The notes under the pieces are model-generated. The model was given only the letters and a program-made list of their open reading frames with translations, was not told the origin of the DNA and did not search any database. A stretch of 64,000 nucleotides of DNA from Dictyostelium discoideum (lineage: Eukaryota). Below, piece by piece: positions 14,790 through 60,628 of this stretch (within the stretch, counting starts at the first letter, position 1; every line of letters starts with the position of its first letter). The position numbers and the translations under genes are program-made. Where the stretch lies: positions 3,872,001-3,936,000 of the forward strand of contig CM000152.2 of NCBI GenBank assembly GCA_000004695.1, read 5' to 3'.

Positions 14790-16946
<2,157 letters not shown>

Positions 16947-19711: not shown

Positions 19712-19742
<31 letters not shown>

Positions 19743-21652: not shown

Positions 21653-22193
21653 TTTATTTTATTTTATTTTATATTTTAGTTTTTTATTTTTTGTTTATTG
21701 AATTAGTTAATTTGATTTAAATAAAAAAAAAAGTTTATAATTTATTTATACATTTTTTTTTAAAAAAATAATTTTAATTGAATAATCAATTTTTATTAAT
21801 TAAAAATATTTTGTAATTTAACCTCAAGTCAACAAAGTTATACAGATATCCACAAATTTCTAATAAATAAATTCTGTTAGATTAATTCTTTTTACAAATT
21901 ATACATAAATAGAAATTTCTAAATGAAATGTATAAAACTTCCTATAAAAACGAATTTGTTTATCACCCCAACCCACAAATATTTGTTGAAAAATTGAAAT
22001 ATAGTGGTGGCAATTCAAAAAAAGACATCATATGATCTTTAACAATACCCCCATTTTTTAAACCTAAAAATATTAATTTGCCAACTTACAATTATTATAA
22101 TATATTTTTTTATTAAAAATAGAAGTAAATAAAAAATTTAAAGAAGATATTATTTTAATGAAAAAAATTTAATGATTAATATCAATCATTTAC

Positions 22194-22231
<38 letters not shown>

Positions 22232-22493
22232 AAATTTGGAAGTAAAATAAAAAATGTTATGGATGTTCTTTTTTAAATAATGTATCGATTTTTATTTTGA
22301 GATCATTCACGAGATTATAAAAAAATCTTTTTTAAAAATATCAATAATCATATTTTAGATATTTTTGTATAGCAATTTTCATCATTTTTTATTTATTTGT
22401 TTTTTATAATTCGGTAATTCACCAATTTTATATTAAATAAAATAGTATTACATTTATAGTAATTTGAATATATATTTTTTTTTTTTAAATATT

Positions 22494-22883
22494 TTAAATA
22501 CCACAACATGGACCTCCACAACATGAACCATTTCCTCCACCCATACCTCCATTACCATTACCACGGTTACCACCATTACCACAAGCACCTCTTGATCTAG
22601 AACCACCAGTTAAATCTAAACCTAATCCTAAACCTAAACCTGAACCAAGAATACCACCACTTCCTCCACAACCACCACCACATGCAATAGAATTGGAGCC
22701 CATACTTGTTCCACTACCAAATGATGCAATACTTGATTTTGATCCAGACATTGAGGTTGACATAGATGAGATTGATGCTAATAATTAAATAATTAATTAA
22801 AATTATAAAATTAATATTTTATTTTATTTATAAATTTTTTTAACCAAAAATAAAATAATTTAATCCTTACAAAAGAGTGTCAT
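22494..22883 (-). CDS. hssA/2C/7E-family protein, copy 5 (B-type; exon 1 at 22883-22871, exon 2 at 22777-22494)
   Basis: Exon 1 is ATGACACTCTTTT|GTAAGG; ORF 22494..22763 extended upstream to the acceptor ATTATTAG. Confidence 0.7.
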
Positions 22884-23239
22884 TTTATTTTTTTTACTTT
22901 AAAATTTGATTTATTTGATGATTTAATTAATGATAGTAAAAAAAAAAAACTTTAAATTTATACTATTTTTTATAGGATAATTAAAATTAAATCATTTTTA
23001 TATTTTTTTTCTTCAAATTATAATTTGTAATTTAACCAATTTTTACAAATGTCAAAAAGTTTACCACAAAATTACAATAAAGCAAATTCTTTGATTTTTA
23101 CTTTTTATTTTTTTTATTTTTGAGGGTAAATACATTTTGGACAGTTTATATTAAAAAGGATATAATGAAATTTCTAATAATAACAAATTCGTATTTATTT
23201 AATTAACCCTCACAATCCACAAATTTTTTAAATATTTAG

Positions 23240-23281
<42 letters not shown>

Positions 23282-23919
23282 TAGAAAAAATAACAATACC
23301 ACCATTAAAAAAATTATTTGTTACCAAATTACAATTCCAGTAAAATTTAACTCAAGTGTGGGATGTTATGGCAATATTAATTAACAATACAATGAAATTT
23401 AACAATAATAAAATCTTAAACTGATATATCTCCTAAAATTAATTTATTAATTTAAAATCTTTTTTTATTTAATCAATCATTTTAAAAAAAGTTAAATTTA
23501 ATTTATAAAAAAAAGAATTATGATAATTATAAAAAACAGAATTTTAAATAAAAAAAAATTTTGATTAAATTTATTTAGTTTTTTAATATAATTGGAGCAT
23601 ATTTAGCACCAATGGCAACATTATAGCAGCTTGAGAAGGTGTATCGCTAGTGGTCTACAATAATGACCAGCATTGTGAGCAGGTGGATGGCATAAAAGCA
23701 CGAGTGTACCCAGAATAACTAACAGAATCAATGGTAGCACAAACCTAACCAATAAATTCTGAAAAAAAAAGAAAAAAAAAAGAAAAAAAAAAAATTAATT
23801 ACTATAGATTTTAATTATTTATTATTTTAAAATAACTTACCTATAATGATTTGGTACACATTTTTGTTGTTTTATATTTTGTTTTCTTTTTTAGTTGGTC
23901 ACATTCGATGTTTGAGGAG

Positions 23920-23952
<33 letters not shown>

Positions 23953-25026
23953 AAATAATTTTAAAATTGAAAAAAAAAAAAAAGGTGGGAAAAAAATGAA
24001 TTATTTTTTTTTTGGTTTTAGAATAGATAAACAGAGCACTCAAAAATATACAAAATGATATAAAATCTAAAAAAATGAATGTAACAATAATCGTATTATA
24101 GTAATTGTAAATTCTATTTTTTCCATTACATATTTAAAATAATATAAAAAAAAATAAATGGAATAAATCTTGATTTCTATAACCGATTTTATTTTTTTTT
24201 TTTTTTTTTTTGTATTCCATATTATTATTTTCTTGGGTACTTATTCCAAAAAGAAAATGATTTTGTTGGTGGGAAATATATTATTTATTATTCTTGTTAT
24301 TTTTGGAAAGAATAATAATATGGAATCATGAAAAAAAATTAATTAAAAAAAAAAAAAAAAAAATTCACACAAAAAACACAACTAATAAATCATCAATTAA
24401 TATACTTTAATATTGAAATGCCATGTTATTTTTTATAAAAAAATACAAAATTATTTTTCATTTCCACACCATCTCATTTTTTTTCTATATAAATGAGCCA
24501 AGATTGGATCATGTGATAAAAAAAAAATAAAAACAAAGAAAAAAATAAAAAAAAAATAAAAAAAATAAAAAATTAAAAAAAAAAAAAAAAAATGTAATAA
24601 TTAATACATTTCTTTATATATCTACTACTAAATACATAGTATTAATTATTTTTAAATTATATAAAATAAAAAATTAAAAAGCAAATAAACAAAACTTATT
24701 TTATTCCTTTAACATAAAAAACATTTAAAAAACTAAGAATTTATTTTTATTTTTCAATTTTATATAATTAATAGTATTTCCAATTGTTTCTCCCCAAGTT
24801 TAAAAACCTTTATTCGGTTACTCTTTATTCTACCTGGCTATTACTAATTCTTCTACTTTATCAAAACATGCTGAATCATTTGATGGTATCCAAAACTTTG
24901 CTATTGGACGACCTAATGTACTTTCAAACTCTCATATTTTTGTTCTATAACAATGGAAACATAGAAAAATTTTATGTAGGTTCCATCAGAAATTATATTA
25001 ATTTAATTTCTGTATTATTTATTTAG

Positions 25027-25087
<61 letters not shown>

Positions 25088-26058
25088 TAATGTAAATTTT
25101 ATTTAATTTTAATTTCTATTTTTTTATAATTTTTTTAGTAATTGTTTATTTTAATAGTAATATTAAAATTTGATGAATAAAAAAAAAAGACACATAATGT
25201 TTTACTCTTTAGAAAGGATGAATTTTTATTTTTTTTAATTTTTTATTTTTTATAAATTCACAATGAGACCCAGTATTAAATATAAAAATATGTTTTATTT
25301 TATTCTAACTTTAGATAAAAAAACAATGATGTTCCTATTTTAAGAAACAATGTTTTTATTATTTAATTTTTTTTTTTTTTTTTTATTTAGTGTTGTTATA
25401 TAAACATTTTTTTTATTATTTTATTTTAAAAAAAAAAAGCTTAACTGAAAATAGTTTTTCTAAAAATAGAATTTTTTGATCTGGCCAAAAATGAAAAATA
25501 ATTATATCATTACAATAAAATGGGAAAATAATGAGAAAACAATGGAGATTTGTTAAAATTAATAATAAAATTGTTTTTTTTTTTTTTTTTTTTTTTTTTA
25601 AGGTAATTCAAGTGTGGGAAGTTTTATATGGTTAAATTTACAGATAATGCAATACCACACAATTTTTTTTATTTTTTTATTTGGGTGTGTGATAAATAAA
25701 TAAAAAAATAAAAATAAAAAAAAAACAAATGGTGGTGATTGATTGTGTGCTGTTTTCTTAAAAAATAAATAAATAAAAAAAAAAATAAAAAAAAAATAAA
25801 AATAAAAAATATATTTTTTGAAATTACATATTGGTACAATGATATAAATAATTTTTTTTTTTCATTATCAATTTTATTTTTTTGTTCACTCAAAAACATC
25901 TCTATTTTATTATATAAAAGCTACACATTGTAAATCCAAAATTTCATTACCTTTCAAGTAAATATTATTTTTTATTTTAGTTTTAAAAATATATTTTATT
26001 AACCTTTTTTTATCTTTTTTTTCTTTTCTCTTTTTTTTTTTTTTTTTTTTTATAAAGA

Positions 26059-28113
26059 ATGGAAAACCCATTCAATTCCAATACTTATAATAATAATTAT
26101 AATAATACTAATTATAATAATAATAATAATTATTATTATAATAATAATAATAATTATAGTAATAATTATTATAATAATAATTATAATAATAATAATTTGA
26201 ATAATAATTATACCAGTTGTAGTAATCATCTCAACCTAACTCCTGAAGAATCTATGATTGATCAACCAAAGGAAAAAGAACAACCTATGCCTTTCTCTGC
26301 ACAAGACAGAACTTTGGCAGTTACTACACCGTCCAATCTAGCAATAGAATCTCAAGTTACCGATCTGTTGAGAGAGGATGAGGAACCATCTGCTGATGCA
26401 TCGCCAGCTACTACCTTTTCCATACAATTAATCGCCAAAGGAGGGCATGTTATTTACCTTAACCATCCAAATGCTCAAGTAGCTACTCTCAAGGTTCAAC
26501 TACCTGATACCGCACCATCCACTTTAGAATTACCATTACAAATAACTCCAGCAATAGACGTAAAGCAACTTGCAATATCGACCCATGATTACCAAAAAAA
26601 TCGGGTGAAGGTATGCGTACCTCGATTAGATCCTAAGGGTAAAGGATATGTACGTATTGAAGCATATGGTTTAAAAGGAGGATCAGGCGGTATAGAACTA
26701 GATACAGAGAAATTGATTACAGATATCGTATCAGGGTTCCATTTAGTAGGCATGCAGCCTTCTTCGGAAATGATCAATAGTTGGCGTCCTTTTTTAAGAG
26801 ACTTCTCTACTACACTCTCCAATATGACTCTGGACTTAAAGGATACCCCTTCTCCGATGTCAATTAATTCTTATGATCCAGGTAACTATCGCAGTACCTT
26901 TGAGCGAATAGCGAGTCATGCTACTAATAGAAGAATTACCCTCACACGATATGGGGCAGCCTACTTGCATATCGTGAGCCAAATAAGAACAAAGATCAAA
27001 CAACAGCAAAGCCTTCCCATTGACCCAGTTGAGTATCCTTCCCATAGCTATACGGTAAGCTTACAACCCAACTTATTGCATATGCTACCCTTGGTGGCCT
27101 CGCTGAATCATCTCTATGCTACGCCCATAGGAGGAGAATTTACCTTTGATGTAGGTAGTTTAATGCAGATAGCCCAGGTCGCTGTATGCTTTCATCCTGC
27201 TTTTTTAAATTTTGAAAATTCTAAAAGAATTACTTCTACTGGCATCAACCTAGATGATTTACTCACTGCTGCTTTACAAGAAACCACTTTGCAAGAGACT
27301 GCAAGAAAGCAAATGGATCAACAAGCACAAGAAAAGATAAAAAAAACAGTAGGTGAGGTAAGTGATTCGCTAGAAAACATAGAACTAGTCATTGAAGATG
27401 CGAAAGAACAATGGCAATCCTTGCATCCTCCCACAGATAACTACCCAGCATCTATGCAAGAAATCATCAAGGATTTGAAAGACATGCATACTTTACTAAC
27501 TAAAAAACTCACCATTTTAGATGATTTAGCCGGTGCAGATGAGAAAATTCGGGCTAAACGCAAAGAGCTGGTGGTAAAATCCACCAGGATGCAAGATGAA
27601 ATCGATGTCCTACTGCCTAAAATGCAGCAGGAACTGGAAAAGGTGAAGAGGGACGCAGTAGCACAAGAGTCTACCTTATTGGTTAGCCCCACAGGTAAAG
27701 GGATCCGTAATGACCGTGGAGGACAAGGTCATTACGGTGCATCGAGAGGTGGTCGCAAACATATGGGCATAGATTTTAGTTCAATAGTAGGACAGGATAT
27801 TGTAGCGCCTATATCTGGGAAAGTAGTCAATTTTAAAGGAGCTAGAACAAAGTATCCTATGTTACAACTATATCCATCAAAAAAGTTCACAGAATTTGAT
27901 TATCTACAAATGTTATATGTTCATCCTCCAGTTGGAATCAATATGGGAGCTAGCTATCAAGTATCTGTTGGAGATACTATTGGTATAGCGGCAAATTTAC
28001 AAGAATTAGGATACTCGGTAGAAGTGACACCACATATTCATTTAGAACTAAAAAAGAATGTACCTGGTAAAGATCCTATAAGTATTGACCCCACTAAATT
28101 TTTCTTCAACTAG
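26059..28113 (+). CDS. Intron-less 684-aa protein: a poly-N/Y leader, then a GC-shifted body with a coiled-coil region and a C-terminal M23 (LytM/lysostaphin-like) metallopeptidase domain; candidate horizontally acquired gene
   Basis: M23 signatures RKHMGIDFS (HxGxD) and TPHIHLE (HxH) flank the GKVVNFKGAR...VGDTIGI core. From about 26215 onward GC rises to roughly 40% against under 25% locally, and codons rare in Dictyostelium (CGG, GGG, CTG, GCG, ACC) appear. There are no introns. Internal ATGs at 26254 (MIDQPKE) and 26287 (MPFSAQ) could be the true start. Confidence 0.6.
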   Translation: MENPFNSNTYNNNYNNTNYNNNNNYYYNNNNNYSNNYYNNNYNNNNLNNNYTSCSNHLNLTPEESMIDQPKEKEQPMPFSAQDRTLAVTTPSNLAIESQVTDLLREDEEPSADASPATTFSIQLIAKGGHVIYLNHPNAQVATLKVQLPDTAPSTLELPLQITPAIDVKQLAISTHDYQKNRVKVCVPRLDPKGKGYVRIEAYGLKGGSGGIELDTEKLITDIVSGFHLVGMQPSSEMINSWRPFLRDFSTTLSNMTLDLKDTPSPMSINSYDPGNYRSTFERIASHATNRRITLTRYGAAYLHIVSQIRTKIKQQQSLPIDPVEYPSHSYTVSLQPNLLHMLPLVASLNHLYATPIGGEFTFDVGSLMQIAQVAVCFHPAFLNFENSKRITSTGINLDDLLTAALQETTLQETARKQMDQQAQEKIKKTVGEVSDSLENIELVIEDAKEQWQSLHPPTDNYPASMQEIIKDLKDMHTLLTKKLTILDDLAGADEKIRAKRKELVVKSTRMQDEIDVLLPKMQQELEKVKRDAVAQESTLLVSPTGKGIRNDRGGQGHYGASRGGRKHMGIDFSSIVGQDIVAPISGKVVNFKGARTKYPMLQLYPSKKFTEFDYLQMLYVHPPVGINMGASYQVSVGDTIGIAANLQELGYSVEVTPHIHLELKKNVPGKDPISIDPTKFFFN

Positions 28114-28381
28114 TAAACCTATGCCTCTGTTTTTCAATTAGTGATTTTTACTGTAGGAAATTCATATCTTAATCACTTTTACAATTTTTAGAACTTCAAA
28201 AAATAGACAAATTTTTTCAAATTAAGATAAAAAAAATAAAAAAAAATTAATTTAAAACAATAATTTTCTATTTATTTGTTTTTTTTTTTATAATTCGGTA
28301 ATTCACCAATTTTATATTAAATAAAATAGTATTACATTTATAGTAATTTGAATATATATTTTAATAATTTTTTAAAATATT

Positions 28382-28776
28382 TTAAATACCACAACATGGA
28401 CCTCCACAACATGAACCATTTCCTCCACCCATACCTCCATTACCATTGCCACGGTTACCACCATTACCACCACAAGCACCTCTAGATCTAGAACCACCAG
28501 TTAAATCTAAACCTAATCCTAAACCTAAACCTAAACCTGAACCAAGAATACCGCCACTTCCACCACAACCACCACCACATGCAATTGAATTTGAACCCAT
28601 ACCTGTTCCACTACCAAATGATGAAATACTGGATTTTGATCCAGACATTGAGGTTGACATTGATGAGATTGATGCTAATAATAACATATTAATTTATAAA
28701 AAATTAGTTTTTTATTTTATTTATAAATTATTTCAACTAAAAATAAAATAATTTTATCCTTACAAAAGAGTGTCAT
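28382..28776 (-). CDS. hssA/2C/7E-family protein, copy 6 (B-type; exon 1 at 28776-28764, exon 2 at 28674-28382)
   Basis: Exon 1 is ATGACACTCTTTT|GTAAGG. ORF 28382..28687 begins inside the intron. The plus-strand Pro-rich ORF 28446..28751 is its antisense artefact. Confidence 0.7.
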
Positions 28777-29596
28777 TTTATTTTTGATTTATTTTATTTA
28801 AATTAAAATTTGATTTATTTAATATTTGATGATTTAATAAAAATAAAAAAAAAAAAAAAAAACTTATAATTTATACCTTTTTTTTTTTTATAGGATAATT
28901 AAAATTAAATCATATTTTTTTTTTTTTTTTTCTTTAAATTATAATAATTTGTAATATAACCAATTTTATACAAATGTATAATGTCAAAAAAGTTAACCAC
29001 AAATTACAAATTCTTTGAATTATACTTTTTTTTTTTGTGTGTTTATATACATTTTTGACAGTTTATATTAAAAAGGATAAAATGAACTTTCTAGTTAATA
29101 ATAACAAATTCGTATTTAATTAATCCACACAACCCACAATTTAAGGTGCCGTTAAAAAAAAAAAAAAAAAAAATAAAATAAATACAATAGAAAAATAACA
29201 ATACCACCAACCAACCTTTAAAAAATTATTTTTTACCATATTACAATTCTTGTAAAATTAACACTAGTGTGGGATGTAATGGTAATATTCAAAAAATAAA
29301 ATCAATTAACAATACAATGAATTAAAACAATAATAAAACCTTAAACTGATAACCTTAACTAGTTTATTAAATATAAATTTTTTTTTTTTAATCAATCATT
29401 TTAAATAGAGTAAAATTAAATTTGAAAAAAAGTATTATTATAATAATAAAAAACGAAATTTTAAAACATTTAAAAAAATTCTGATTTAATTTATTTAGTT
29501 TTTTAATTTAATTGGAAATTCGCCAATTTTTAAATATAATAGTATTACATTTGTTGTAATTTTGAAAATATATTTTTAATAATTTATAAAAATATT

Positions 29597-29927
29597 TTAA
29601 ATACCACAACAACAACCTCCACAACATGGGCCATTTCCTCCACCCATACCTCCATTACCATTACCACGGTTTCCACCATTACCACCACATGCACCTCTTG
29701 ATCTAGAACCACCAGTTAAATCTAAACCTAATCCTAAACCTAATCCTAAACCAAGAATACCACCACTTCCACCACAACCACCTCCACATGCAACTGTATT
29801 TGAACCCATACTTGTTCCACTACCAAATGATGATATACTGGATTTTGAACTTGTCATTGGATTTGAAATTGATGAAATTGATGCTATTAATTTTATAATT
29901 TAATTAGTATTCATAATTTATTTTATA

Positions 29928-29963
<36 letters not shown>

Positions 29964-29980
29964 TTACAAAAGAGTGTCAT
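29597..29980 (-). CDS. hssA/2C/7E-family protein, copy 7 (A-type; exon 1 at 29980-29968, exon 2 at 29883-29597)
   Basis: Same exon 1, intron and exon 2 architecture as the other copies; ORF 29597..29857. Confidence 0.7.
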
Positions 29981-30908
29981 TTTATTTTATTTTATTTAAG
30001 TTTAGTTTATTTTTTTATTTTTTTATTAAATTAATAATATATTTATGGAATTAATAATAAAGTTTTTAATTTATTTATACATTTTTTTTTGAAATAATTA
30101 TTTAAATTGAATAATCACTTTTTATTAATTAAAAATAGTTTGTAATTTAACCTCAAGTCTACAAAGCCAAAAAGTTATCCACGAATTTCTAATAAATCAA
30201 TTCTGTAAGATTAAATCTTTTTACAAATTCTACATAAGAGAAAAAAGTTTAAACAATATAAAAAAATAAATTGAAATTTCTAAATGGAATGTATAAAACT
30301 TCATATAAAAACGAATTTGTTTATCACCCCAACCCACAAATATTTATTGAAAAATTGAAAATAGTGGTTGCAATTCAAAAAAAAAAAATCTTCATATGAT
30401 CTTTAACAATAACCCCATTTTTTAAACCTAAAAATAATTATCACCAACTTACATTTTTTTTTTTTTTATATTAAAAATAGACTTATATATAATTTAAAGA
30501 AGATAATAAAATTTTAATGAAAAAATTATAATGATTGGTATTATAAAAAAAAAACTATATCTTTTATTTTAAACTAAAATTTTAATGATAAAATCATAAA
30601 CCAAATTATGTTTTAAAATTATTCAATTAATAATTGTTTTTTTTTATAAAATTGAACATGATTGATTTTTTCTATAGAAGATTCGAATCTTTGTCCCCTT
30701 ATCAAATCTTAACTCTAAAAACATCAAAACAATATATCAATAGTTTTAAATTAAGATAATAGAAAATAATAAAATAAAATAATTTAAAACAATAATTTTT
30801 TATTTGTTTTTTTTTTTATAGTTCGGTAATTCATCAATTTTATATTAAATAAAATAGTATTACATTTATAGTAATGTTGAATAAATATTTGTAAATTTTT
30901 TTAATATT

Positions 30909-31326
30909 TTAAATACCACAACATGGGCCTCCACAACATGAACCATTTCCTCCACCCATACCTCCATTACCATTACCATTACCACGATTACCACCACAAG
31001 CACCTCTTGATCTAGAACCACCAGTTAAATCTAAACCTAATCCTAGACCTAAACCTAAACCTGAGCCAAGAATACCACCACTTCCACCACAACCACCACA
31101 TGCAATTGAATTTGAACCCATACTTGTTCCACTACCGAATGATGAAATACTGGATTTTGATCCAGACATTGAGGTTGACATTGATGAGATTGATGCTAAA
31201 AAATAATTTAAATTATAAAATTAGTATTTTATTTTATTATATAATATTTATATAATTATAAAATATTATGAAATATATAATTTCAACCATAAATAAAATA
31301 TTTTAATCCTTACAAAAGAGTGTCAT
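30909..31326 (-). CDS. hssA/2C/7E-family protein, copy 8 (B-type; exon 1 at 31326-31314, exon 2 at 31195-30909)
   Basis: Same architecture as the other copies; ORF 30909..31181. Confidence 0.7.
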
Positions 31327-32016: not shown

Positions 32017-34218
<2,202 letters not shown>

Positions 34219-39231: not shown

Positions 39232-40109
39232 TCAATTTTGCTTCACAAATTAAAAAAATAAAATCTTTGATTATTGGTTGTGAATTTCAATTAGTAAGGC
39301 AAAATCAAAATTAATCATTAAGTGAAAATACCAATAATATCTCGAAAAAAAAAAAAAAAGACCACACAATAGTGTGTGAAAATTAAATATATAAATTATT
39401 TTATTAAAAGAAAAATATGCATATAGGGTGAATTTATTGTTATATATTTTTTTATTAATTAGAATACTAGCACATATTAGTGCATGGATAAAAATCATTT
39501 CTAACAAAAAAAAAAAAAAATAATAAAAAAAAATAAAATAAAATTGTTATTTTTGCTTATGTTGTTGTTGTTGTGTTTTTGTTGTTGGTTATACCAATTA
39601 TTGATTTTATTTTAATTTTTTTTTTTTTTTTTTTTTTATTTTTTTTTTAGTATGGGGTTATATATATAAAGTGTGGTTTCTTTTTGATTTTAAAGCGAGA
39701 TAACGTTCTTATCGAGTTGTTCTATTTTTAAAAAAAAAAAAAAAATTAAAAAAATTTAATAGTTAAAAATAAAAATATAAATTGGAAAAATAAAAGAAAA
39801 AATGATGAGCCCCTAAAAAATCTCTATTGAATTTACAGAATTCAATCATTGATTTTATTTTTGGTTTATTTTTAAATATTACATAAAAAAAAAAAAAAAA
39901 AAAAATATATAAAAATATAAAAATAAAAAAATAAAAATAGGTTGTAAATTAATTGATTTGATTGTTAATACCACTCATAGTATTTTTATTATTTTTATTA
40001 TTTTTATTTTTTTTATTTTACAATTTTACTTTACTTTTTTTTTTTTAAAATTTTATTTTTTCCTTCTCATATTTCTGTGAGGAAATAGACCAATTAATTA
40101 TTTGAATTT

Positions 40110-40146
<37 letters not shown>

Positions 40147-40206
40147 GGAATTGAATTTTGGTGGTGTGTGGGATATGTTTAAATAATCACAGATCTGGCC
40201 AATTTT

Positions 40207-40248
<42 letters not shown>

Positions 40249-40529
40249 CTTTCCAACTTTTTTTTTTTTTTTTTTTTTATTTTTTTTTTATTTTATTTTA
40301 TTTTTATTTTTATTTTTTTTTTTTTTATCGTCACGCAACTGATTCATTCATTTTTGTATATATTTTCCTGTTTTAATATTGATTTATTTATTTGTTCATT
40401 TATTTCGCCATATATTTATTTATTTATTATTTATTTATTTATTTATTTAAAAGATAACATCTTATTTGTATATATTAAAAAAAAAAAAAAAAAAAAAATT
40501 AATTAAAAAAAAAAAATAATAATAATAAT

Positions 40530-40564
<35 letters not shown>

Positions 40565-40676
40565 AAAGAAAAATATAAAAATAATAATAATAAATTTATT
40601 TGTACATATATAAAAAAAAAAAAAAAAATATCAACAAAAAAAAAAAAAAAAAAAAAAAAAAAACTACAATAATAAT

Positions 40677-42050
40677 ATGGCAGATAAACAAGGATTTTTA
40701 ATTAAAGAAGGTGGATCAATTAAAACATGGAAAAAGAGATGGTGTGTTTTAAAAAATAATTCAATTTTCTATTCAAAGAATGCAAGTAGTGGTGAATTAG
40801 GAATTATTCATTTAAAGGGAGTAAGTTCAATTAGTATTAGCTCAAGAAAGAAAAAGAATTGTTTTGAAATAGCAACACCTGAAAGAACCTATTTTATGAA
40901 GGCACCATCAACTGAAGAGATGAAAGAATGGATAGAGATTATAACTCAACAATTAAATAAACTTAAAGAATCTACAACAAGATCCAATAGTATGGGACAA
41001 AGTGATAACAATTTAAGACTATCTTCTAGTGGTGGTGGTGGATCAACACAACAACGTATATCAGTTGAAGATTTTGATTTATTAAAAGTTATTGGTAAAG
41101 GTAGTTTTGGTAAAGTTATGCAAGTTAGAAAGAAAGATAATGATAGAATTTATGCAATGAAGGTGTTGAATAAGAATAACATTATAGAGAGAAAAGAGGT
41201 TGATCATACGAGATCAGAGAAAAATATCCTACAAAAGTTGGTTCATCCATTCTTGGTGAACTTAAATTACAGTTTCCAAACCAACGATAAACTCTACTTT
41301 ATAATGGATTATATAAATGGTGGTGAGCTATTCTTTCACCTGCAAAACGAAGAGAAATTCGATGAAATTCGTGTGAAATTTTATTGTGCAGAAATAGTTT
41401 GTGGACTGGAGTATCTCCATAATTGCGGCATTATATATCGTGACCTCAAGCCAGAGAACATTCTACTAACAAGCGATGGACATATAGTATTGACCGATTT
41501 TGGTATAAGCAAGGAGGGTCTGGTGTCCGATAACGACCGTACGGCAACATTTTGTGGCACACCCGAGTATTTAGCTCCAGAGGTGCTCTTGGGCAAGGGC
41601 TATGGTAAGGCTGTGGATTGGTGGAGTTTTGGAACGTTGGTGTATGAGATGTTGTCTGGTTTACCACCATTCTACTCTCAAGACGTTAGGGAGATGTATC
41701 AAAAAATCATGAATGAAGATTTGAAATTCACACCACAATTCTCACCAGATGCAAGAGATTTCATAACTTAACTATTGGAAAGAGATCCAAATAAACGTTT
41801 AAGAGATATAAAAGTTGTTAAATCACATCCATTCTTCAAAGGTATCGATTGGGATAAATGCGTAAAAAAAGAATTAACTCCACCTTTCATCCCACCTGTA
41901 ACTGGTGGTAAAAATGATACAAGTCAAATCGATTCTGGTTTCTTAATTGAAACTGCAAAATTATCATTAGATCCAACAACACTAAGTAGTTCAATGCAAA
42001 AGAACTTCGAAGGTTTTACATTTGTAAATGTAAATGAACATTTAAATTAA
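40677..42050 (+). CDS. PKB/Akt-like AGC kinase with N-terminal PH domain, activation-loop TFCGTPEY and hydrophobic motif FEGFTFV; the reading frame is interrupted by one in-frame TAA at 41769-41771
   Basis: ORFs 40677..41771 and 41775..42050 are in the same frame, separated by a single TAA inside subdomain XI (...SPDARDFIT*LLERDPNKRL...). Kinase motifs present: GKGSFGKV, AMK, HRDLKPEN, DFG, GTPEYLAPE. The second ORF's reported M is a TTG. Confidence 0.7.
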
Positions 42051-42148
42051 TAAATAATAATAAATAATAAATAATAAAAAAATAAAAAAAATAAAAAAAA
42101 TAATTTTGTATTATAATAATTAAATTATTTGTTTATTTATTTTTATTT

Positions 42149-43176
42149 TTAATTTAAATTAACTTTAATTAATGATTCTAAACAAGCTCTACCACCTTCA
42201 ATTTCTAATTTAACTTTTGTATTATTATCTAAGAAAGCTTGAGTGACACGATTTGCTAAAATGATTGTAGAAGAAGCAGCTTTAATTGGTTGTTTTGAAC
42301 GTGTTGCTAAATGATATAATTGGAAAGTTTCCATTTCCAAGGTGTTTACTTTATTCTCATATAGATCAATGATATTTTCAATTAATTGTTCATTGAAATC
42401 ATCAAATTCTGGGTCGATTCTACCTTGACTACTATAGAATGAATCGGCTGATGCATTAATACCAACGACTGTTTTTCTATCTTTGAAAATTGATTCAAAG
42501 TCATTCTTTAATAAATCGATCAACTCTTTATCACCTGCAACTGGTTTTGAAATGTCATATGGTTTGCATTTAGTTTGATCTTTATTATTATCAGAGTGCC
42601 AGAAATCTGGATTTCTACGAATTAAAATCGATGATTCTGCAATTGCCAATGAACCAACTTCAACATCTTTAATAGAGCCACATGTACCATATCTAATGAT
42701 TGCCATTGGTCCATCTACAACAAATCTACCCTCTCTAACTAAAAAGTCCATCATTGGTGTACCCATACCAATTGATACAATTGATACTCTAACTCCCTTA
42801 TATTTACCAGTATGAATTACAAATCCTCTATGTGCTTTTTCTTCTTCAACTTCTTCTAATAATTCTTTTGTAAGTCTTGATGCACGTTCTGAATCTCCAA
42901 CTGTTAAAATTCTTTGTGATACTTTTTTTTAAAAAAAAAATAACAAATAAAAAATAAATAATTATTAATTAATTAATTAATTAATTAATAAATAAAAAAA
43001 TAAAAAAAAAATTTTAAAATAATAATAATAATGATTGTGAGAGAGAGAAAAAAAATAAAAAAAAATAAAAAAAACTTACATTCCCCTTTTGCAACACCTA
43101 AATGATATACAGCATTTCTTTCATCAACTGGGAAATTTGCATTTTTAGCATCGCCTAATTTTTTTACTTCTGTCAT
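42149..43176 (-). CDS. Purine/uridine nucleoside phosphorylase family (PNP_UDP_1, DeoD-like), two exons (43176-43080, 42921-42149)
   Basis: Exon 1 (ORF 42985..43176) ends GGGGAAT|GTAAGT. The acceptor (A)nG joins in phase to ORF 42149..42766. Family motifs: SIGMGTPMM, RYGTCGSI, EMETFQLYHLA. Confidence 0.6.
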
Positions 43177-51505: not shown

Positions 51506-52871
51506 ATGGATACTCATCAATCATTTAATGAAAATCAACATCCAAATTTTAATAGTGGTAATCATGGAGGTATTAATATGAATAGATTTCAAAGATTTTC
51601 AAAACCAACAATTTCACCAATTCAACAACAACAACAACCACAACCACAACAACCATCATCAATTATACAAAGACAATCAATCATTATGACACAACCACAA
51701 CCACAACCACAACCACAAATGATACCAATATTTAGAGAACCAAATGAATGGTATAAATTAATTGATATGGAAATGAATAAATTTAATAATGAGTCAAGAC
51801 CATCACCTGAATATATAAAATATTTAACTCAATTATTTCAACAGGCTTTAGATAGTCTTGAACATAAAAATACACCCGAATTTTATTTATTCTTATTAAA
51901 TCGTGCAACTTTTCAAAGGTAATTTTATATTAAAACTTTTTTTTTTTTTCTTTTAAAATACATGATACTAACTGAAAACTTTTTTTTTTTATTTCATTCA
52001 TCATGGATTATATTAATCACTCACACATTCACATACACACACATATATATATTATATATATATATATATACTATTAGTAAAATCGGAGAGAATGAAGATG
52101 CAAAAGGAACATTAAAATATATGAAAGTATTAAAGATGGAAAGTTTTGAAGTATTTGTATTATTATCAGAGATTGAATCGAAATCTTTTAGATTTTCAAA
52201 GGCAAGATCAATTATTAATAGAGGTATTCAAAAGATTCCCTCAAGGAGTAAAGAATTTGAGGGATTTTTAATGGTTATAGATATTCAAGAGGATGAATTT
52301 TCAAGAAATGGTTGTATTATTAGTAATAATAATAATATAAGTTTTAATAATGGTGATGTAAATAATAATAGTATAATAATGAATGAAAATGATCAACCAA
52401 TGGTAATTAATCTTAATCCACAGCAGCAACAACAACAACAACAACAACCATATGAAATATCATCATCATCATCATTGATGAGTACACCAGCATCCTCTAG
52501 ACATTTATCTAATAGATCATCAATAGTTCCAACACCAAATAGTTCAACAAAACTCTCTGAATCAATTAAAACAATTGGTTTAAGATCTGTACAACCCAGA
52601 AGAGTTATTCATAAACAAACTACTACAAATTTTAATACCACCACTACTACTATACCTGAAAATAGTTATGATGATGATGCTGATCAACCAATGGATCATG
52701 ATGGTAATAATAATAATAATTTTAGAATACATTCGAACAACAATAATAATAGTAGTGCAAATAGTAGTTATAATAAAAGTGAAAATGATGAAGATGATCA
52801 AGATGAAGAAGATGAAGAAGAAGAAGATGAAGATGAGGATGATGATGAAGAAGATGAAGAAGAGTATGAAG

Positions 52872-52951
<80 letters not shown>

Positions 52952-53104
52952 TATTTTAAATACAATCGACAACAATACATTTTAAATAATGATAGTGATA
53001 CTAGTACAAACCCAAATTCACCAGCATCTTCAAACTCTTCTGTTAACGATATCATTAACAGTATTTCAATTACTGATGATTCTAAATTAGATTATGAAAA
53101 TAAT

Positions 53105-53189
<85 letters not shown>

Positions 53190-53459
53190 ATATACAACAA
53201 CAACAACAACAACAACCAAAAATACACCCACAAAGATTTTCACTTCAAAATAATACACCAACAACAACTACAACAACAACAGCAGCAACAAATGTACAGA
53301 ACCCTTCATCATCATCATCATATATTTCACCTCCTTTATCTTCTCAATCATCAGAACTCCAACATCAAAGAAGACACTCTATTCAAGCTCAAAGAGCAAA
53401 TAAACCTCCTGTTATTCCTCCACCTTCAAAATTACATCAAAATAATTTACAACAGCAGC

Positions 53460-53513
<54 letters not shown>

Positions 53514-53568
53514 TACTTTTACAACAACAAGCTTTATTACAACAACAGCAGCAACAACAAATTTTATT

Positions 53569-53620
<52 letters not shown>

Positions 53621-54616
53621 AAACAACAAGAACAACAATTAAAAAAAACAAATATGCAACCACCGCCACCAAAGCAACCTCAACCTCAAACCCAAACTCA
53701 ACAACAACAAAAAAATATTAATAATTCAGAAATTGTTGATAAAGAAAAATCATTTGAAGTTGCAAAAAGTTGGAGTGAAGTTGCAATGGTAAATGGTAAA
53801 CCATATTTAAGAATTGAATTTATAGGAAAAGGTGGTAGTGGTAAAGTTTATAAGGTATTAAGTGGTGATTTAAAAATCTATGCATTGAAATATGTTTGTT
53901 TATCAGATCCAAATGAGATTGAAGCACAATTGAATGAAATTGAAATGTTGAAACGTTTAAGAAAACAGGTTAATATCATTCAATTGATAGACTATGAAGT
54001 TAATATGGCAAAGAATTATATATTGTTAGTGTTGGAATTTGGTGAGATCGATCTATCAAAACTTTTACAAAGATTGCAAACTCCGAATGGAACCAATGTG
54101 AATTTCATACGTATCTATTGGCAGCAAATGTTGCAGGCTGTGCACACCATCCACGAGGAGAAGATCATTCATGGTGATTTGAAACCCGCAAATTTCGTCT
54201 CGGTTCAGGGTAGTTTAAAATTAATTGATTTCGGTATTGCCAAAGCCATCCAATCCGATGATACTACCAATATCGTTAGAGAGAGTCAAATTGGTACAAT
54301 CAATTATATCTCACCCGAGGCTTTAATCGATACTTCACAAGGTGGTCCAAAGCAGTGTATGAAGTTAGGAAGAGCAAGTGATATTTGGTCTTTGGGTTGT
54401 ATACTCTATGAGATGGCTTTTGGTTATCCACCTTTTAAAAGTTTTTCAAATATAATCTCAAAATATCAAGCTATCATTAATCCTCATCATAAAATTGAAT
54501 TTCCAGTTCATCCAAATGAAAATTTATTAAAAGTTTTAAAACTTTGTTTAATTAGGAATCCTCATGAAAGACCAACAATTCCAACTTTATTAAATCATGA
54601 TTTTTTAAAAATTTAA
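51506..54616 (+). CDS. Mps1/TTK dual-specificity protein kinase with an N-terminal TPR-like region and polyQ/polyN, two exons (51506-51918, 52078-54616)
   Basis: ORF 51506..51922 ends CAAAG|GTAATT. The acceptor CTATTAG joins in phase to ORF 51962..54616. The kinase domain resembles TTK: IGKGGSGKVYKV, IYALKYV, HGDLKPANF, LIDFGIA, GTINYISPEA, SDIWSLGCILYEM. Confidence 0.7.
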
Positions 54617-54680: not shown

Positions 54681-55709
54681 TTAATTTAATTTTATAACAA
54701 TTTTACCAAATGAACCTCTTGATAAATGTTGAAATGCTTTAATTGAATCATCAAAATCATAAATTGTATCAATTACTGGTTTAAAGATGAAATTTGTTGA
54801 TAATTGATTAATCATTTCTTGGAAAGAATCTTTTGGTGAAACTCCAATACCATGTAGGTTAATTCTTTTAAAGAGAGCATCAAAAAGGTTGATTTTAGCA
54901 TTTGATTCTTTTAAAAATCCAATCATATAGATATGACCATGTGTATGACTACAACGTATTGATCTATTTATATAATCACCACCAACTACATCAAGTACAT
55001 GATTTACACCTTGATCATTTGTTAATTTCATAACTTCTTTCTCCCATTCATTATGGGTTTTATAATTTATAACATGAGTGGCACCCATTTTTAATAATCT
55101 TTCTTTTTTTTCTTCATTACTTGTTAAAAGTATAGTTTTTGCACCAATTGAATGTGATATTTGAAGAGCGAATAATGAGACACCGCCAGTGCCTTGAATT
55201 AAAACAGTTTGATTTGATTTTAATTTTGATTCAATTCCACCGACATTCATTAACGAATACCACGCTGTACATGCTGCAATGGGTAATGTTGAGCATTCTT
55301 CATCTGTGTAATGTTTTGGTGGTATTAAACATGAGTTTTCATCAAGAATAATGTATTTTGCTAAACCGCCATTTAACGGACCACCATAACTGAATTGTTC
55401 TTCATTACTTTTCGCTTCACCTTCCATCCAGTGAGATAAGAAATGATTTACAACTCTATCACCAACTTTAAATTTCTTTACATTTTTTCCAACTTTTTCA
55501 ATTATGCCACAAGTATCAGATACTGGTATTAAACCTTTTTCAAATTTAATACCATAGGTTCCATCCATTATTGCTTTATCTCTATAGTTTAATGAAACTG
55601 CTGATACTTTAACCAATACTTGATCATCATTAATATGTGGAACTGAAATTTCATCCATTTTCATACCATAGGTACCATCAAAACTATGAATTCTCCATGC
55701 CTTCATCAT
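54681..55709 (-). CDS. Zinc-type alcohol dehydrogenase / quinone oxidoreductase (MDR superfamily), single exon, 342 aa
   Basis: GroES-like N-terminal domain and Rossmann-fold motif (LIQGTGGVSLFALQI). The ORF is uninterrupted. Confidence 0.75.
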   Translation of the reverse strand: MMKAWRIHSFDGTYGMKMDEISVPHINDDQVLVKVSAVSLNYRDKAIMDGTYGIKFEKGLIPVSDTCGIIEKVGKNVKKFKVGDRVVNHFLSHWMEGEAKSNEEQFSYGGPLNGGLAKYIILDENSCLIPPKHYTDEECSTLPIAACTAWYSLMNVGGIESKLKSNQTVLIQGTGGVSLFALQISHSIGAKTILLTSNEEKKERLLKMGATHVINYKTHNEWEKEVMKLTNDQGVNHVLDVVGGDYINRSIRCSHTHGHIYMIGFLKESNAKINLFDALFKRINLHGIGVSPKDSFQEMINQLSTNFIFKPVIDTIYDFDDSIKAFQHLSRGSFGKIVIKLN

Positions 55710-58482: not shown

Positions 58483-58955
58483 GTATTGTTAAAAATAATA
58501 TCATGTTTTTTTAATTAATAACCACCAAATCTATTAATTTCAATTTTTTATTAATATTTGTGGATTGGGGTATTGGTGTGTTTGAGTGTGTGGTTAAAGA
58601 TAAACCAATTAGTTTTTATATTTTTATATATATAACTATTATGGGTATCATTAACTGGAAATTTCGTATTTTTAATATTTTGTAAACTGCTAAAAAAGTT
58701 TATTCATCTAATATGAACTCAAACTTAAAAATAAATATTATTTGAATTTGGTAGTTAATTTTTACTTTTTTACAATACTGGTTAAATTACAAGTTAATAT
58801 AAATGAAAAAGAGTGATTTATTTTTTATATTACTCAAAAATAAAAAGTATAAATTAAAATTTTTTTTTTTTTTTTCATTAATCAATTATTATATTTTTAA
58901 TAAAAAAAAATTAAAATAAATTAAAATAAATTAATATAAATTATATTAAAATAAA

Positions 58956-59315
58956 ATGACACTCTTTTGTAAGTATTTTTTTTTTATTATTTTTTAATTT
59001 AATAAATTAAAATAATTACTAATAATTTTTATAATTATAGCATCAATCTCATCAATTTCAAACCCAATGACAAGTTCAAAATCCAGTATTGCATCATTTG
59101 GTAGTGGAACAAGTATGAGTTCAAATTCAATTGCATGTGGTGGTGGTTGTGGAGGTGGAAGTGGTGGTATTCTTGGTTTAGGTTTAGGATTAGGATTAAA
59201 TTTATTTGGAGGTTCTGGATCAAGAGGTGCTTGTGGTGGTAATGGTAGATCTGGAAATCCTGCTCAAGGAGGAAATGGAGGTTCTTGTTGTGGAGGTCCA
59301 TGTTGTGGTATTTAA
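58956..59315 (+). CDS. hssA/2C/7E-family protein, plus-strand copy (exon 1 at 58956-58968, exon 2 at 59041-59315)
   Basis: Exon 1 is ATGACACTCTTTT|GTAAGT. The acceptor TAATTATAG joins in frame to ORF 59067..59315. Confidence 0.7.
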
Positions 59316-59429
59316 AATATCTTAAAAAATTTTAAAAAAAATATATATGTTCAAAAGTACTATAGATGTAATAGTACTTTATTAAAATAAAAATGGTTAT
59401 TTACCAGTTTATTCAAAACAAAAAAAAAT

Positions 59430-59462
<33 letters not shown>

Positions 59463-60247
59463 TTATTGTTTTTTATTTTTAATTTTTAAAATAAACTATT
59501 TCTACAATTGTTATTGTAATGGTCTCAATTTAAATTAATTTTATTAGTCTTATTTTTCATTGGTTTAATTGATATATGATTGACCTCATTGAAATACCCA
59601 CTTTTTTAATCCATTTTTGTGGTGATAATTAATTCATTATTAACCCCATTTTATAAAAAAAAAATCTAAACTTTTTTTAAAGTTTTTAAAATTATTATAG
59701 TTCATTTAATAATATCAATAATCAAAGAAATGCCTTCGGTTTTAATAAAAATAAAATAATAGTTATTTTTATTTTATTTTTATTAAAAAAACATAAAAGA
59801 AATTTGGGATGATATTAAAAGGGGGTATTGTTATAAATCTAAAGATGTTTTTTTATTATATTTCAAAAATAACACAAAATTATAATTTTTGTGGGCTGTG
59901 GGTAAAATATTTTAATTGATAAACAAATTCTTTTTATATTAATTGTATTACATTACCTTTTTTTTTTTTTTTTCTATTTTTATATTATTGGTAAAATGAA
60001 TAAAAAAGTATATTCATCTGATGAATATACTGAAACTTAAAATGTCATTTATTTGAAATTTTGGTAAACTTTTTGACATTGTAGTATTTTGGTTAAATTA
60101 CAAATTATTATTAAAAAAAGTGATTAAAAACAAAAATAAAAAATAAAAAAAAATAAAAAAAAAAAACAAGGATATAAATAAAAAACTTTTTAGCTTTTTA
60201 ATTAACAAATATTAATACTAAATTATAAAATAATTAAAAAATAAAAA

Positions 60248-60628
60248 ATGACACTTTTCTGTAAGGATTTTAATATTTTAAAACAAAAATCATAAAAAAA
60301 ACATTTTGTAAACTAATTTTTAAAAAAATAATGAAAACTAATAAATTAATTATTATTAATAGCATCAATCTCATCAATTTCAAACCCAATGACAAGTTCA
60401 AAATCTATAATAGCATCATTTGGTAGTGGAACTATTATGAGTTCAAATTCAATTGCATGTGGTAGTGGTTGTGGAGGTGGAAGAGGTGGTATTCTTGGTT
60501 TAGGTTTAGGATTAGGATTAAATTTATTTGGAGGTTCTAGAGGTGCTTGTGGTGGTAATGGTGGATCTGGAAATCCTGCTCAAGGAGGAAATGGTTCTTG
60601 TTGTGGAGGTCCATGTTGTGGTATTTAA
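60248..60628 (+). CDS. hssA/2C/7E-family protein, plus-strand copy (exon 1 at 60248-60260, exon 2 at 60363-60628)
   Basis: Exon 1 is ATGACACTTTTCT|GTAAGG. The acceptor TTATTAATAG joins in frame to ORF 60389..60628. Confidence 0.7.

What the first reader, a model, noticed from the sequence alone, without database searches (positions are those of the whole stretch)
41760..41780. In-frame TAA inside kinase subdomain XI of a PKB/Akt-like PH-AGC kinase
The kinase is otherwise intact: PH domain, GKGSFGKV, HRDLKPEN, DFG, TFCGTPEYLAPE, and after the stop the AGC tail with hydrophobic motif FEGFTFV. It is split by one TAA (41769-41771) at exactly the position where AGC kinases have a single residue (...ARDFIT-x-LLERDPNKRL). 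Both flanking ORFs are in the same frame and there are no other defects. Four readings are possible: a very recent nonsense mutation in this strain, a base-call error (CAA/AAA/GAA to TAA), a strain polymorphism, or programmed stop-codon read-through.
Basis: seen in the sequence. Interest (0 to 1): 0.55.

Follow-up and report, generated by a model that had tools for sequence, protein, structure and literature searches.

The report
Known Dictyostelium akt2/pkgE nonsense pseudogene
The stop codon is real, but it is the already catalogued pseudogene akt2_ps (pkgE) of the laboratory strain of Dictyostelium discoideum: one recent base change (TCA serine to TAA) cuts short a second Akt-type kinase that is old, conserved and intact in every related slime-mould genome examined.

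Summary
The in-frame TAA at 41769-41771 is confirmed. It interrupts a single-exon gene at 40677-42050 (+) that encodes a PH domain, an AGC kinase domain and an AGC tail.

The gene is D. discoideum Akt2_ps, also called pkgE, PK5, pkfB or DK3. Goldberg et al. 2006 already list it as a pseudogene with the same sequence. Its PH domain is the widely used PIP3 reporter PH-PkgE/PH10.

The stop is not a base-call error. It also appears in an independent chromosome-level assembly (ACTFIT) and in GenBank AAF21806, a 364-aa product.

Seven sister genomes carry TCA (Ser) at this codon and have an intact ORF. They are two labelled D. discoideum, two D. cf. discoideum, two D. citrinum and one D. dimigraforme. 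The cause is therefore a C-to-A change at 41770.

The family is under strong purifying selection (dN/dS 0.01-0.05). The window's own branch carries 6 synonymous changes, the nonsense change and one T378I change, so inactivation was recent.

Nothing supports programmed read-through or a reassigned TAA.

One point goes beyond the 2006 paper. akt2 is not a retrocopy of akt1. Both paralogues have orthologues in the same species from across the dictyostelids, with conserved neighbouring genes, and introns are present in D. purpureum and C. fasciculata.

Verdict: already known, low interest.

The parts
40677..42050 (+). Whole akt2_ps / pkgE gene: a single exon of 457 codons if the internal stop is read as a residue. 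The true terminator is TAA at 42048-42050, followed by a second TAA.
   Evidence: The sequence is identical to Akt2_ps (DDB0215393p; pkgE, PK5, pkfB, DK3) in Table S2 of PMC1420674 over the roughly 400 aa shown.
40686..40952 (+). PH domain (aa 4-92). This is the domain used as the PIP3 reporter PH-PkgE / PH10.
   Evidence: Pfam PF00169, E=2.5e-21. Reporter constructs use PkgE residues 1-100 or 1-103 (PMC5154761; PMC4374526).
41079..41837 (+). Protein kinase domain (aa 135-387) with GKGSFGKV, YAMK, YRDLKPEN, DFG and TFCGTPEYLAPE. The stop interrupts it at codon 365.
   Evidence: Pfam PF00069, E=1.8e-76. The best solved relatives are full-length human AKT2 and AKT1.
41547..41549 (+). Activation-loop Thr291 in TATFCGT. 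I infer it to be the counterpart of the PDK1 phosphorylation site of Akt.
   Evidence: The column is invariant in the alignment. Its role is inferred from established knowledge of AGC kinases.
41769..41771 (+). Premature TAA at codon 365. It is derived from TCA (Ser) by a C-to-A change at 41770.
   Evidence: The window and L001 (ACTFIT) have TAA. L002, L003, L006, L007 and L008 have TCA and L004 has TCT.
41808..41810 (+). Codon 378, ATA (Ile). This is the second derived amino-acid change on the window/ACTFIT branch; the sister genomes have ACA or ACC (Thr).
   Evidence: The site varies (P, A or T) in deeper orthologues, so it says nothing about relaxed constraint.
41910..42023 (+). AGC C-terminal tail (aa 412-449), including the hydrophobic motif FEGFTF at 42006-42023. 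It is still intact but lies downstream of the stop.
   Evidence: Pfam PF00433, E=4.8e-07. The tail is identical in all members of the D. discoideum complex.
41696..41782 (+). An 87-nt stretch that the ACTFIT gene model (P0002, 428 aa) removes as an intron to avoid the stop. It is not a credible intron.
   Evidence: Removing it reproduces P0002 exactly. It is 31% GC, starts GTATCA, and encodes 29 conserved residues. The kinome paper describes such 'bogus' introns and gives the norm for real Dictyostelium introns as under 15% GC.

Best explanation
The window comes from the laboratory (NC4/AX4-type) lineage of Dictyostelium discoideum, and the gene is akt2_ps, also called pkgE. A single C-to-A change at 41770 turned Ser365 (TCA) into TAA. 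The predicted product is a 364-aa fragment. It keeps the PIP3-binding PH domain and most of the kinase core. It lacks the end of the kinase fold with the conserved subdomain-XI Arg, and the whole AGC tail with the hydrophobic motif FEGFTF. From what is established for AGC kinases, that fragment should be catalytically dead or unstable, so the allele is a loss of function. The event is recent, and the gene it disabled is an old paralogue of pkbA that is under strong selection and present in all the dictyostelid species examined. It is best described as a unitary, lineage-specific pseudogene, not a decayed retrocopy. Shown here: the stop is real, the ancestral codon was TCA, relatives carry an intact gene, the family is under purifying selection, and the paralogue is ancient. 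Inferred: that the truncated protein has no activity, and that the allele is confined to the NC4-derived lineage.
For: Identity: the sequence equals Akt2_ps in the AX4 kinome table, which flags it as a pseudogene.

Independent confirmation: the gene in L001 (ACTFIT, GCA_054883475.1) is 100% identical, including the TAA. The flanks differ by 35 mismatches and 159 indel columns over 21 kb, clustered in AT-rich intergenic tracts, so it is a separate assembly of the same lineage. GenBank AAF21806 is the 364-aa truncated product.

Ancestral state: six sister loci whose DNA was fetched have a Ser codon here (TCA in five, TCT in L004), and a seventh genome (D. citrinum ACTFIU, P0126) has Ser in its protein. 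All seven have full-length ORFs of 456-461 aa.

Selection: dN/dS is 0.014-0.052 between the window and the relatives, and 0.026-0.063 in the 92 codons after the stop. The window's branch carries 6 synonymous changes and 1 nonsense change, plus T378I. Under neutrality this has P about 0.0004-0.0013 for 1 of 7 changes, and by my own hand calculation stays below about 0.005 if T378I is also counted.

Ancient paralogue: akt2 orthologues are 76-84% identical to the window protein and only 57-60% identical to PkbA. They occur in D. purpureum, P. violaceum, T. lacteum, A. subglobosum and C. fasciculata. Separate PkbA orthologues occur in D. purpureum, C. fasciculata and A. subglobosum, and also in H. 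album.

Synteny and introns: a PNP_UDP_1 gene lies next door in D. purpureum, and a RabGAP-TBC gene lies upstream in C. fasciculata, as in the window. D. purpureum and C. fasciculata have introns in this gene.

Genetic code: TAA is the normal terminator here (16 of 17 long ORFs), and this gene itself ends TAA TAA.
Against: The kinome paper's Figure 6, with EST and RT-PCR results per pseudogene, is not held as text. The nearest intact alleles are fairly distant (dS about 0.13, about 4% mismatch in the flanks), so the mutation cannot be dated within D. discoideum proper. It could have arisen in the laboratory, be private to NC4, or be segregating in the wild. The stop is followed by C (UAA-C-UA), which is a weak termination context in other eukaryotes, so a small amount of full-length protein cannot be excluded. 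A truncated protein that still binds PIP3 through its PH domain could have some non-catalytic effect.
Confidence: 0.9

Rival explanations
1. Sequencing or assembly error: the true codon is a sense codon and the gene is intact in this strain.
For: A single-base difference (TCA vs TAA) in a very AT-rich genome. The ORF is otherwise perfect.
Against: The same TAA is in an independent assembly (L001), in the 2006 AX4 kinome catalogue and in a separate GenBank entry of 364 aa. The kinome authors state in general terms that, where stops or frameshifts blocked the best gene model, they examined individual genome reads and ESTs to see whether these were sequence errors.
Confidence: 0.01
2. Programmed or functionally meaningful stop-codon read-through: ribosomes decode UAA-365 at a useful rate, so lab strains still make full-length PkgE.
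For: The downstream 92 codons are intact and conserved. The stop is followed by C-U-A, unlike the A or T that follows the other stops in the window. On my own knowledge, a C after the stop is the leakiest context in other eukaryotes.
Against: The stop is absent from all seven sister genomes and from all deeper orthologues, so nothing has been selected for read-through. The context is simply inherited from TCA CTA TTG. The 100 nt downstream fold no better than shuffles (z = +0.85). There is no Rfam hit and no suppressor tRNA in the window. On my own knowledge, UAA is the least leaky stop codon. Conservation after the stop is explained by how recent the mutation is. A literature search for stop-codon read-through in Dictyostelium returned nothing whose title or abstract bears on this gene; those papers were not opened.
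Confidence: 0.04
3. Processed (retrotransposed) pseudogene of akt1/pkbA, as hinted in the 2006 kinome paper because akt2_ps has no introns while akt1 has two.
For: The D. discoideum-complex gene has no introns. PkbA has two introns.
Against: It is only 58.6% identical to PkbA but 76-84% identical to a distinct set of orthologues in five other dictyostelid species. D. purpureum, C. fasciculata and A. subglobosum also have their own PkbA. Neighbouring genes are conserved (PNP_UDP_1 in D. purpureum, RabGAP-TBC in C. fasciculata). The D. purpureum orthologue has a 71-nt intron after codon 10. The C. fasciculata orthologue has an intron at the same place as PkbA intron 1. dN/dS is about 0.02. The lack of introns is therefore intron loss in a functional gene.
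Confidence: 0.02
4. TAA is a sense codon (for example Gln) in this organism, so there is no interruption.
For: The paralogue PkbA has Gln at the aligned position. TAA-to-Gln reassignment exists in some protists (my own knowledge).
Against: 16 of 17 long ORFs in the window end in TAA, and this gene itself terminates at TAA TAA just after the conserved hydrophobic motif. The direct ancestors of the codon are TCA and TCT (Ser), not CAA.
Confidence: 0.002

Closest known systems
Akt2_ps / pkgE (DDB0215393; aliases PK5, pkfB, DK3) of D. discoideum AX4, in Goldberg et al. 2006, PLoS Genet 2:e38 (PMC1420674)
   Same: It is the same locus. The protein sequence is identical, with the interruption at DFIT|LLERD, and it is classed as AGC/AKT with YAMK, YRDLKPEN and DFG and flagged as a pseudogene.
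   Different: Nothing differs in the sequence. The interpretation differs. The paper lists akt1 as the likely parent and stresses the missing introns, hinting at a retrocopy. The comparisons here show an ancient, syntenic, selected paralogue that is intact in sister genomes.
PkbA (Akt1) of D. discoideum and mammalian AKT1/AKT2
   Same: Same architecture: an N-terminal PH domain, an AGC kinase core, an activation-loop Thr and a C-terminal hydrophobic motif. The best solved relatives are full-length AKT2 and AKT1 (E about 1e-107 to 1e-104).
   Different: It is 58.6% identical to PkbA and belongs to a separate orthologue group. It has no introns. In this lineage it is truncated before the end of the kinase fold.
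Unitary or polymorphic pseudogenes (a single-copy conserved gene inactivated by one recent mutation in one lineage)
   Same: One disabling substitution, no further decay, and intact orthologues under purifying selection in close relatives.
   Different: The allele's frequency in natural D. discoideum populations is unknown. Only NC4-type sequences were seen with TAA.
Programmed stop-codon read-through genes (for example UGA-CUAG genes of animals)
   Same: An in-frame stop followed by conserved coding sequence, and C-U-A after the stop.
   Different: The stop is not conserved in any relative, it is UAA rather than UGA, and there is no stimulatory structure.

Membership tests
AKT/PKB family of AGC kinases | N-terminal PH domain | tested here: met
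   Pfam PF00169, aa 4-92, E=2.5e-21. The domain is used experimentally as a PIP3 reporter.
AKT/PKB family of AGC kinases | Complete catalytic core (Gly loop, VAIK Lys, catalytic loop RD, DFG, APE, subdomain-XI Arg) | tested here: not met
   All motifs are encoded. The predicted 364-aa product ends before the KRL Arg of subdomain XI, so the translated protein lacks the last element.
AKT/PKB family of AGC kinases | Activation-loop Thr and C-terminal hydrophobic motif F-x-x-F-[ST]-[FY] | tested here: inconclusive
   Thr291 is present. FEGFTF (aa 444-449) is encoded but lies downstream of the stop. It is present in the DNA and absent from the predicted product.
AKT/PKB family of AGC kinases | Closest solved and curated relatives are AKT | tested here: met
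   The top PDB hits are AKT2 and AKT1 over aa 4-427. The kinome paper classifies it as AGC/AKT.
Pseudogene by recent nonsense mutation (unitary / polymorphic) | A disabling mutation in an otherwise conserved region that is real rather than an error | tested here: met
   TAA is seen in the window, in L001 and in AAF21806, and is listed in the kinome table.
Pseudogene by recent nonsense mutation (unitary / polymorphic) | An intact, selected orthologue in close relatives, with the ancestral sense codon identifiable | tested here: met
   Seven sister genomes have Ser365 and full ORFs. dN/dS is 0.01-0.05.
Pseudogene by recent nonsense mutation (unitary / polymorphic) | No functional product made | not testable with these tools
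   This needs RNA-seq, Ribo-seq, western blot or mass spectrometry. The exact 364-aa product is not on record in the gene index.
Processed (retro) pseudogene of akt1 | A recent copy of a parent gene, with no orthologue at the same locus in other species | tested here: not met
   Distinct orthologues with shared neighbouring genes exist in D. purpureum and C. fasciculata. Identity to PkbA is only 58.6%.
Processed (retro) pseudogene of akt1 | Lack of introns because the copy derives from mRNA | tested here: inconclusive
   The D. discoideum complex has no introns, but orthologues have one or more introns, one of them at the position of PkbA intron 1. This fits intron loss.
Programmed stop-codon read-through | The stop codon is conserved among relatives | tested here: not met
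   Every relative has a sense codon.
Programmed stop-codon read-through | A read-through-promoting context or 3' RNA structure | tested here: inconclusive
   UAA-CUA-U has the leaky +4 C and three of the four bases of CUAG. There is no stable structure (z = +0.85) and no Rfam element.
Stop-codon reassignment (TAA as sense) | TAA is not used as a terminator in the genome | tested here: not met
   16 of 17 long ORFs end in TAA, and this gene ends TAA TAA.

The most novel reading that the evidence does not exclude
The weak UAA-C-UA context lets a small fraction of ribosomes read through codon 365. Laboratory D. discoideum would then be a hypomorph rather than a null for a third PIP3-dependent Akt (PkgE). 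Alternatively, the stable PH-plus-crippled-kinase fragment acts as an endogenous PIP3 buffer. Either way, the 'pseudogene' would still shape PIP3/PKB signalling in the strains on which the field's chemotaxis and macropinocytosis work rests.
Probability: 0.05. Interest if true: 0.5.

Novelty: already known. Interest (0 to 1): 0.17.

Why it matters
As an observation it adds little. The locus has been published as akt2_ps since 2006, and its PH domain is an everyday PIP3 reporter.

The comparative result has modest practical value for Dictyostelium researchers. The standard laboratory lineage appears to lack a second PH-domain Akt through a very recent single-base change. That kinase is conserved in all the dictyostelid species examined, with dN/dS about 0.02. 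PKB/Akt genetics done in AX strains (pkbA, pkgB/PKBR1) may therefore have been carried out in a natural akt2-deficient background. Wild relatives may have an extra PIP3-responsive kinase.

It also corrects the idea that akt2_ps is a retrocopy of akt1. Finally, it shows automated annotation (the ACTFIT model) again hiding the stop behind an invented intron.

Tried and rejected
- **Exact look-up of the 364-aa truncated product** in the gene-position index, to look for transcript assemblies or other strains: nothing on record.
- **Metagenome scan** for the 29-mer around the codon, with N at the variable base: 0 hits.
- **Read-through signals:** RNA folding of the 100 nt after the stop gave z = +0.85. 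Rfam on 40000-43000 at E<=1 found nothing. The tRNA scan found only Gly-GCC twice and Glu-UUC.
- **High GC3 in the kinase core:** codons 160-340 have GC3 of 0.40-0.57, against about 0.15 elsewhere in the gene. I considered gene conversion or foreign origin. The same profile is in the D. purpureum orthologue and in pkbA, so it is an ordinary codon-bias pattern of conserved kinase cores.
- **The ACTFIT model's 87-nt intron as a real splice that rescues the frame:** rejected. It is 31% GC, has a poor 5' site, and would delete 29 conserved residues.
- **T378I as a sign of relaxed constraint:** rejected, because the site varies among deeper orthologues.
- **Literature:** searches for the accessions AAF21806, Q9U567 or ACTFIT, for the new assemblies, and for read-through in Dictyostelium returned nothing that appeared relevant from titles and abstracts.
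- **NJ bootstrap:** support for the complete akt2 clade was lost on re-rooting. The two-clade conclusion rests on the tree shape, 94% support for the akt1 clade, and the identity table.

Full report
**Observation.** The window is about 20% G+C with long A and T homopolymers. An ORF starts at ATG 40677. It is interrupted by TAA at 41769-41771, continues in the same frame, and ends at TAA TAA (42048-42053). Read through the stop, the 457-residue product has a PH domain (aa 4-92), a protein kinase domain that spans the stop (aa 135-387, E=1.8e-76) and an AGC C-terminal domain (aa 412-449). The catalytic loop is YRDLKPEN rather than HRDLKPEN. The residue expected at the stop is not K, Q or E (see the ancestral codon below).

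**Identity.** The best protein matches are Dictyostelium proteins. The sequence is identical, over the roughly 400 residues displayed, to 'Akt2_ps' in Table S2 of the Dictyostelium kinome paper (Goldberg et al. 2006, PMC1420674). That entry is DDB0215393p, with synonyms pkgE, PK5, pkfB and DK3, classed AGC/AKT, and it shows the interruption at DFIT|LLERD. The paper lists it among 15 kinase pseudogenes recognised by nonsense codons or frameshifts in conserved regions. It notes that automated predictors had hidden such defects with invented introns or truncated ORFs. The PH domain of PkgE (residues 1-100 or 1-103, 'PH10') is a standard PIP3 reporter in the field. The finding is therefore already known.

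**Is the stop real?** Three lines of evidence say yes.
- A chromosome-level assembly labelled D. discoideum (locus tag ACTFIT, GCA_054883475.1; L001) has a gene 100% identical to the window's, including the TAA.
- Over 21 kb of flank, L001 differs from the window by 35 mismatches and 159 indel columns, clustered in AT-rich intergenic tracts. It is thus an independent assembly of essentially the same lineage.
- GenBank AAF21806 / UniProt Q9U567 ('rac serine/threonine kinase homolog') is a 364-aa protein that ends exactly at the stop.

The ACTFIT annotators produced a 428-aa model by splicing out window 41696-41782. Removing those 87 nt reproduces their protein exactly. The 'intron' is 31% GC, begins GTATCA and encodes 29 conserved residues, so it is an annotation device and not biology.

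**Ancestral codon.** Seven genomes of the D. discoideum complex encode full-length proteins of 456-461 aa with Ser at the stop position. They are two labelled D. discoideum (ACTFIR, ACTFIW), two D. cf. discoideum, two D. citrinum and one D. dimigraforme. In the six loci whose DNA I fetched, the codon is TCA in five and TCT in one. The lesion is therefore a C-to-A transversion at 41770. Deeper orthologues have L, N or A at this position, and the paralogue PkbA has Q.

**Age of the lesion.** Pairwise dN/dS between the window allele and the relatives is 0.014-0.052 over the gene, and 0.026-0.063 in the 92 codons after the stop. Polarising with the relatives, the window/ACTFIT branch carries six synonymous changes, the nonsense change and T378I. 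T378I falls at a site that varies in deeper orthologues. If the gene had drifted neutrally along that branch, about 75-80% of changes should alter the protein. For 1 of 7 changes the observed pattern has P about 0.0004-0.0013, and by my own hand calculation it stays below about 0.005 if T378I is counted. The gene was therefore under selection for most of the branch, and the stop is recent. The nearest intact alleles are rather distant (dS about 0.13, about 4% mismatch in the flanks). I cannot tell whether the stop arose in the wild ancestor NC4, in the laboratory, or is segregating in nature.

**What the truncation removes.** The stop aligns with the G of LLAGLLKKDP in human AKT2. The 364-aa product keeps the PH domain and kinase subdomains I-X. 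It loses the subdomain-XI Arg (KRL) and the whole AGC tail with the hydrophobic motif FEGFTF. From established knowledge of AGC kinases, the tail and its hydrophobic-motif phosphorylation are needed for activity, and the subdomain-XI Arg stabilises the C-lobe. I therefore infer a loss-of-function allele. This step is inference and was not tested.

**Read-through and genetic code.**
- TAA is the normal terminator in this window: 16 of 17 ORFs of at least 150 aa end in TAA, and this gene's own terminator is TAA TAA. Reassignment is excluded.
- Programmed read-through predicts a conserved stop, and no relative has one.
- The 100 nt downstream fold no better than shuffled controls (z = +0.85).
- Rfam finds nothing, and the window's tRNAs are ordinary.
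- The stop is followed by C-U-A, a weak context in other eukaryotes (my own knowledge), whereas the other stops in the window are mostly followed by A or T. That context is merely inherited from TCA CTA TTG. A trace of read-through cannot be excluded.

**Origin of akt2.** This goes beyond the 2006 paper, which singled out akt2_ps as lacking introns while its presumed parent akt1 (pkbA) has two, implying a retrocopy. The comparisons here contradict that.
- The window protein is 58.6% identical to PkbA but 76-84% identical to a distinct protein in D. purpureum, Polysphondylium violaceum, Tieghemostelium lacteum, Acytostelium subglobosum and Cavenderia fasciculata.
- D. purpureum, C. fasciculata and A. 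subglobosum also have their own PkbA orthologue, as does Heterostelium album.
- A neighbour-joining tree separates the two groups, with 94% bootstrap support for the akt1 clade.
- Gene neighbours are shared. A PNP_UDP_1 gene lies downstream in the window, in all complex members and in D. purpureum. An F-box/RabGAP-TBC gene lies upstream in the window (32020-34218) and a RabGAP-TBC gene lies upstream in C. fasciculata.
- The D. purpureum orthologue has a 71-nt intron after codon 10.
- The C. fasciculata orthologue has an intron between YYSKNP and SGELG, the same place as PkbA intron 1 (YYKTKG|ELVPLG).

The duplication therefore appears to predate the divergence of the dictyostelid species examined, and the intron-less state in the D. 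discoideum complex reflects intron loss in a functional gene.

**Verdict.** This is a real nonsense allele of a conserved second Akt, already catalogued as a pseudogene. It is not an error, not read-through and not a reassigned codon. Interest is low. The residual value is practical. The standard laboratory lineage probably lacks a kinase that its relatives keep under strong selection, which can be tested by repairing one base.

Noticed in passing
window 18823-31181 (- strand ORFs at 18823-19080, 20080-20382, 22494-22763, 28382-28687, 29597-29857, 30909-31181); related copies at about 58800-62800 in inverted orientation: A cluster of about 1-kb repeats, 78-88% identical to one another. Each carries a small (85-101 aa) Gly/Ser/Cys-rich ORF ending in CCGGPCCGI or CCGGCCCGI. 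One ORF matches Pfam PF05710 'Coiled' (E=5e-16). On my own knowledge I take this to be the Dictyostelium hssA/2C/7E small-protein family.
   Followed up: partly
window 26059-28113 (+): A 684-aa ORF embedded in that repeat cluster. It has the highest G+C in the window (0.38) and is the only long ORF ending in TAG. It has an Asn/Tyr-rich N-terminus. Its C-terminus matches Peptidase_M23 just below Pfam's threshold (27.5 vs 28.7 bits, E=3.7e-06; HxxxD and HxH motifs are visible). It may be a bacterial-type domain in an amoeba gene.
   Followed up: partly
window 41150-41700 (codons about 160-340 of pkgE): Third-position G+C rises to 0.40-0.57 in the kinase core, against about 0.15 in the rest of the gene and 0.09-0.29 in neighbouring genes. 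The same profile appears in the D. purpureum orthologue and in pkbA, so it seems to be a general codon-bias feature of this conserved core.
   Followed up: yes
L002 and L003 (assemblies GCA_054859355.1 and GCA_054859385.1, labelled D. discoideum) against window 30700-52300: These two assemblies labelled D. discoideum differ from the window by about 4% mismatches plus many indels over 21 kb, and by dS about 0.13 in pkgE. On my own recollection of published D. discoideum diversity, that is far more than expected within one species. They may represent cryptic lineages.
   Followed up: partly
L010 3001-4532 (C. fasciculata DFA_05853, P0027): The public gene model looks wrong. It lacks about 39 residues of the PH domain, because an intron after about aa 36-38 seems to be mis-placed. 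It also contains a 24-residue insertion (GKRNKREISYIWLTSTNNNNTLFV) inside the kinase domain that is probably an unspliced in-frame intron.
   Followed up: partly
P0127 (GenBank AAF21806) against window 40677-41768: The 364-aa GenBank protein differs from the window at D3N, R21K and R70K. Given the window's codons (GAT, AGA, AGA), each is most simply a G-to-A change, which suggests cloning or PCR errors or a slightly different source strain.
   Followed up: no
window 3955-4025, 4679-4749, 17342-17414 (+): Two tRNA-Gly(GCC) genes lie about 720 bp apart, and there is one tRNA-Glu(UUC) gene. On my own knowledge, tRNA genes are landing sites for TRE retroelements in Dictyostelium; I did not check for any here.
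   Followed up: no
window 51962-54613 (+): A second, unrelated protein kinase gene: an 884-aa ORF with the kinase domain at aa 617-882 (Pfam E=1.3e-52). It lies 10 kb downstream of pkgE. Other neighbours are an NPRL3/GATOR1 homologue (14793-16946, -), a PX-domain protein (10333-13029, +) and a zinc-type alcohol dehydrogenase (54684-55709, -).
   Followed up: no
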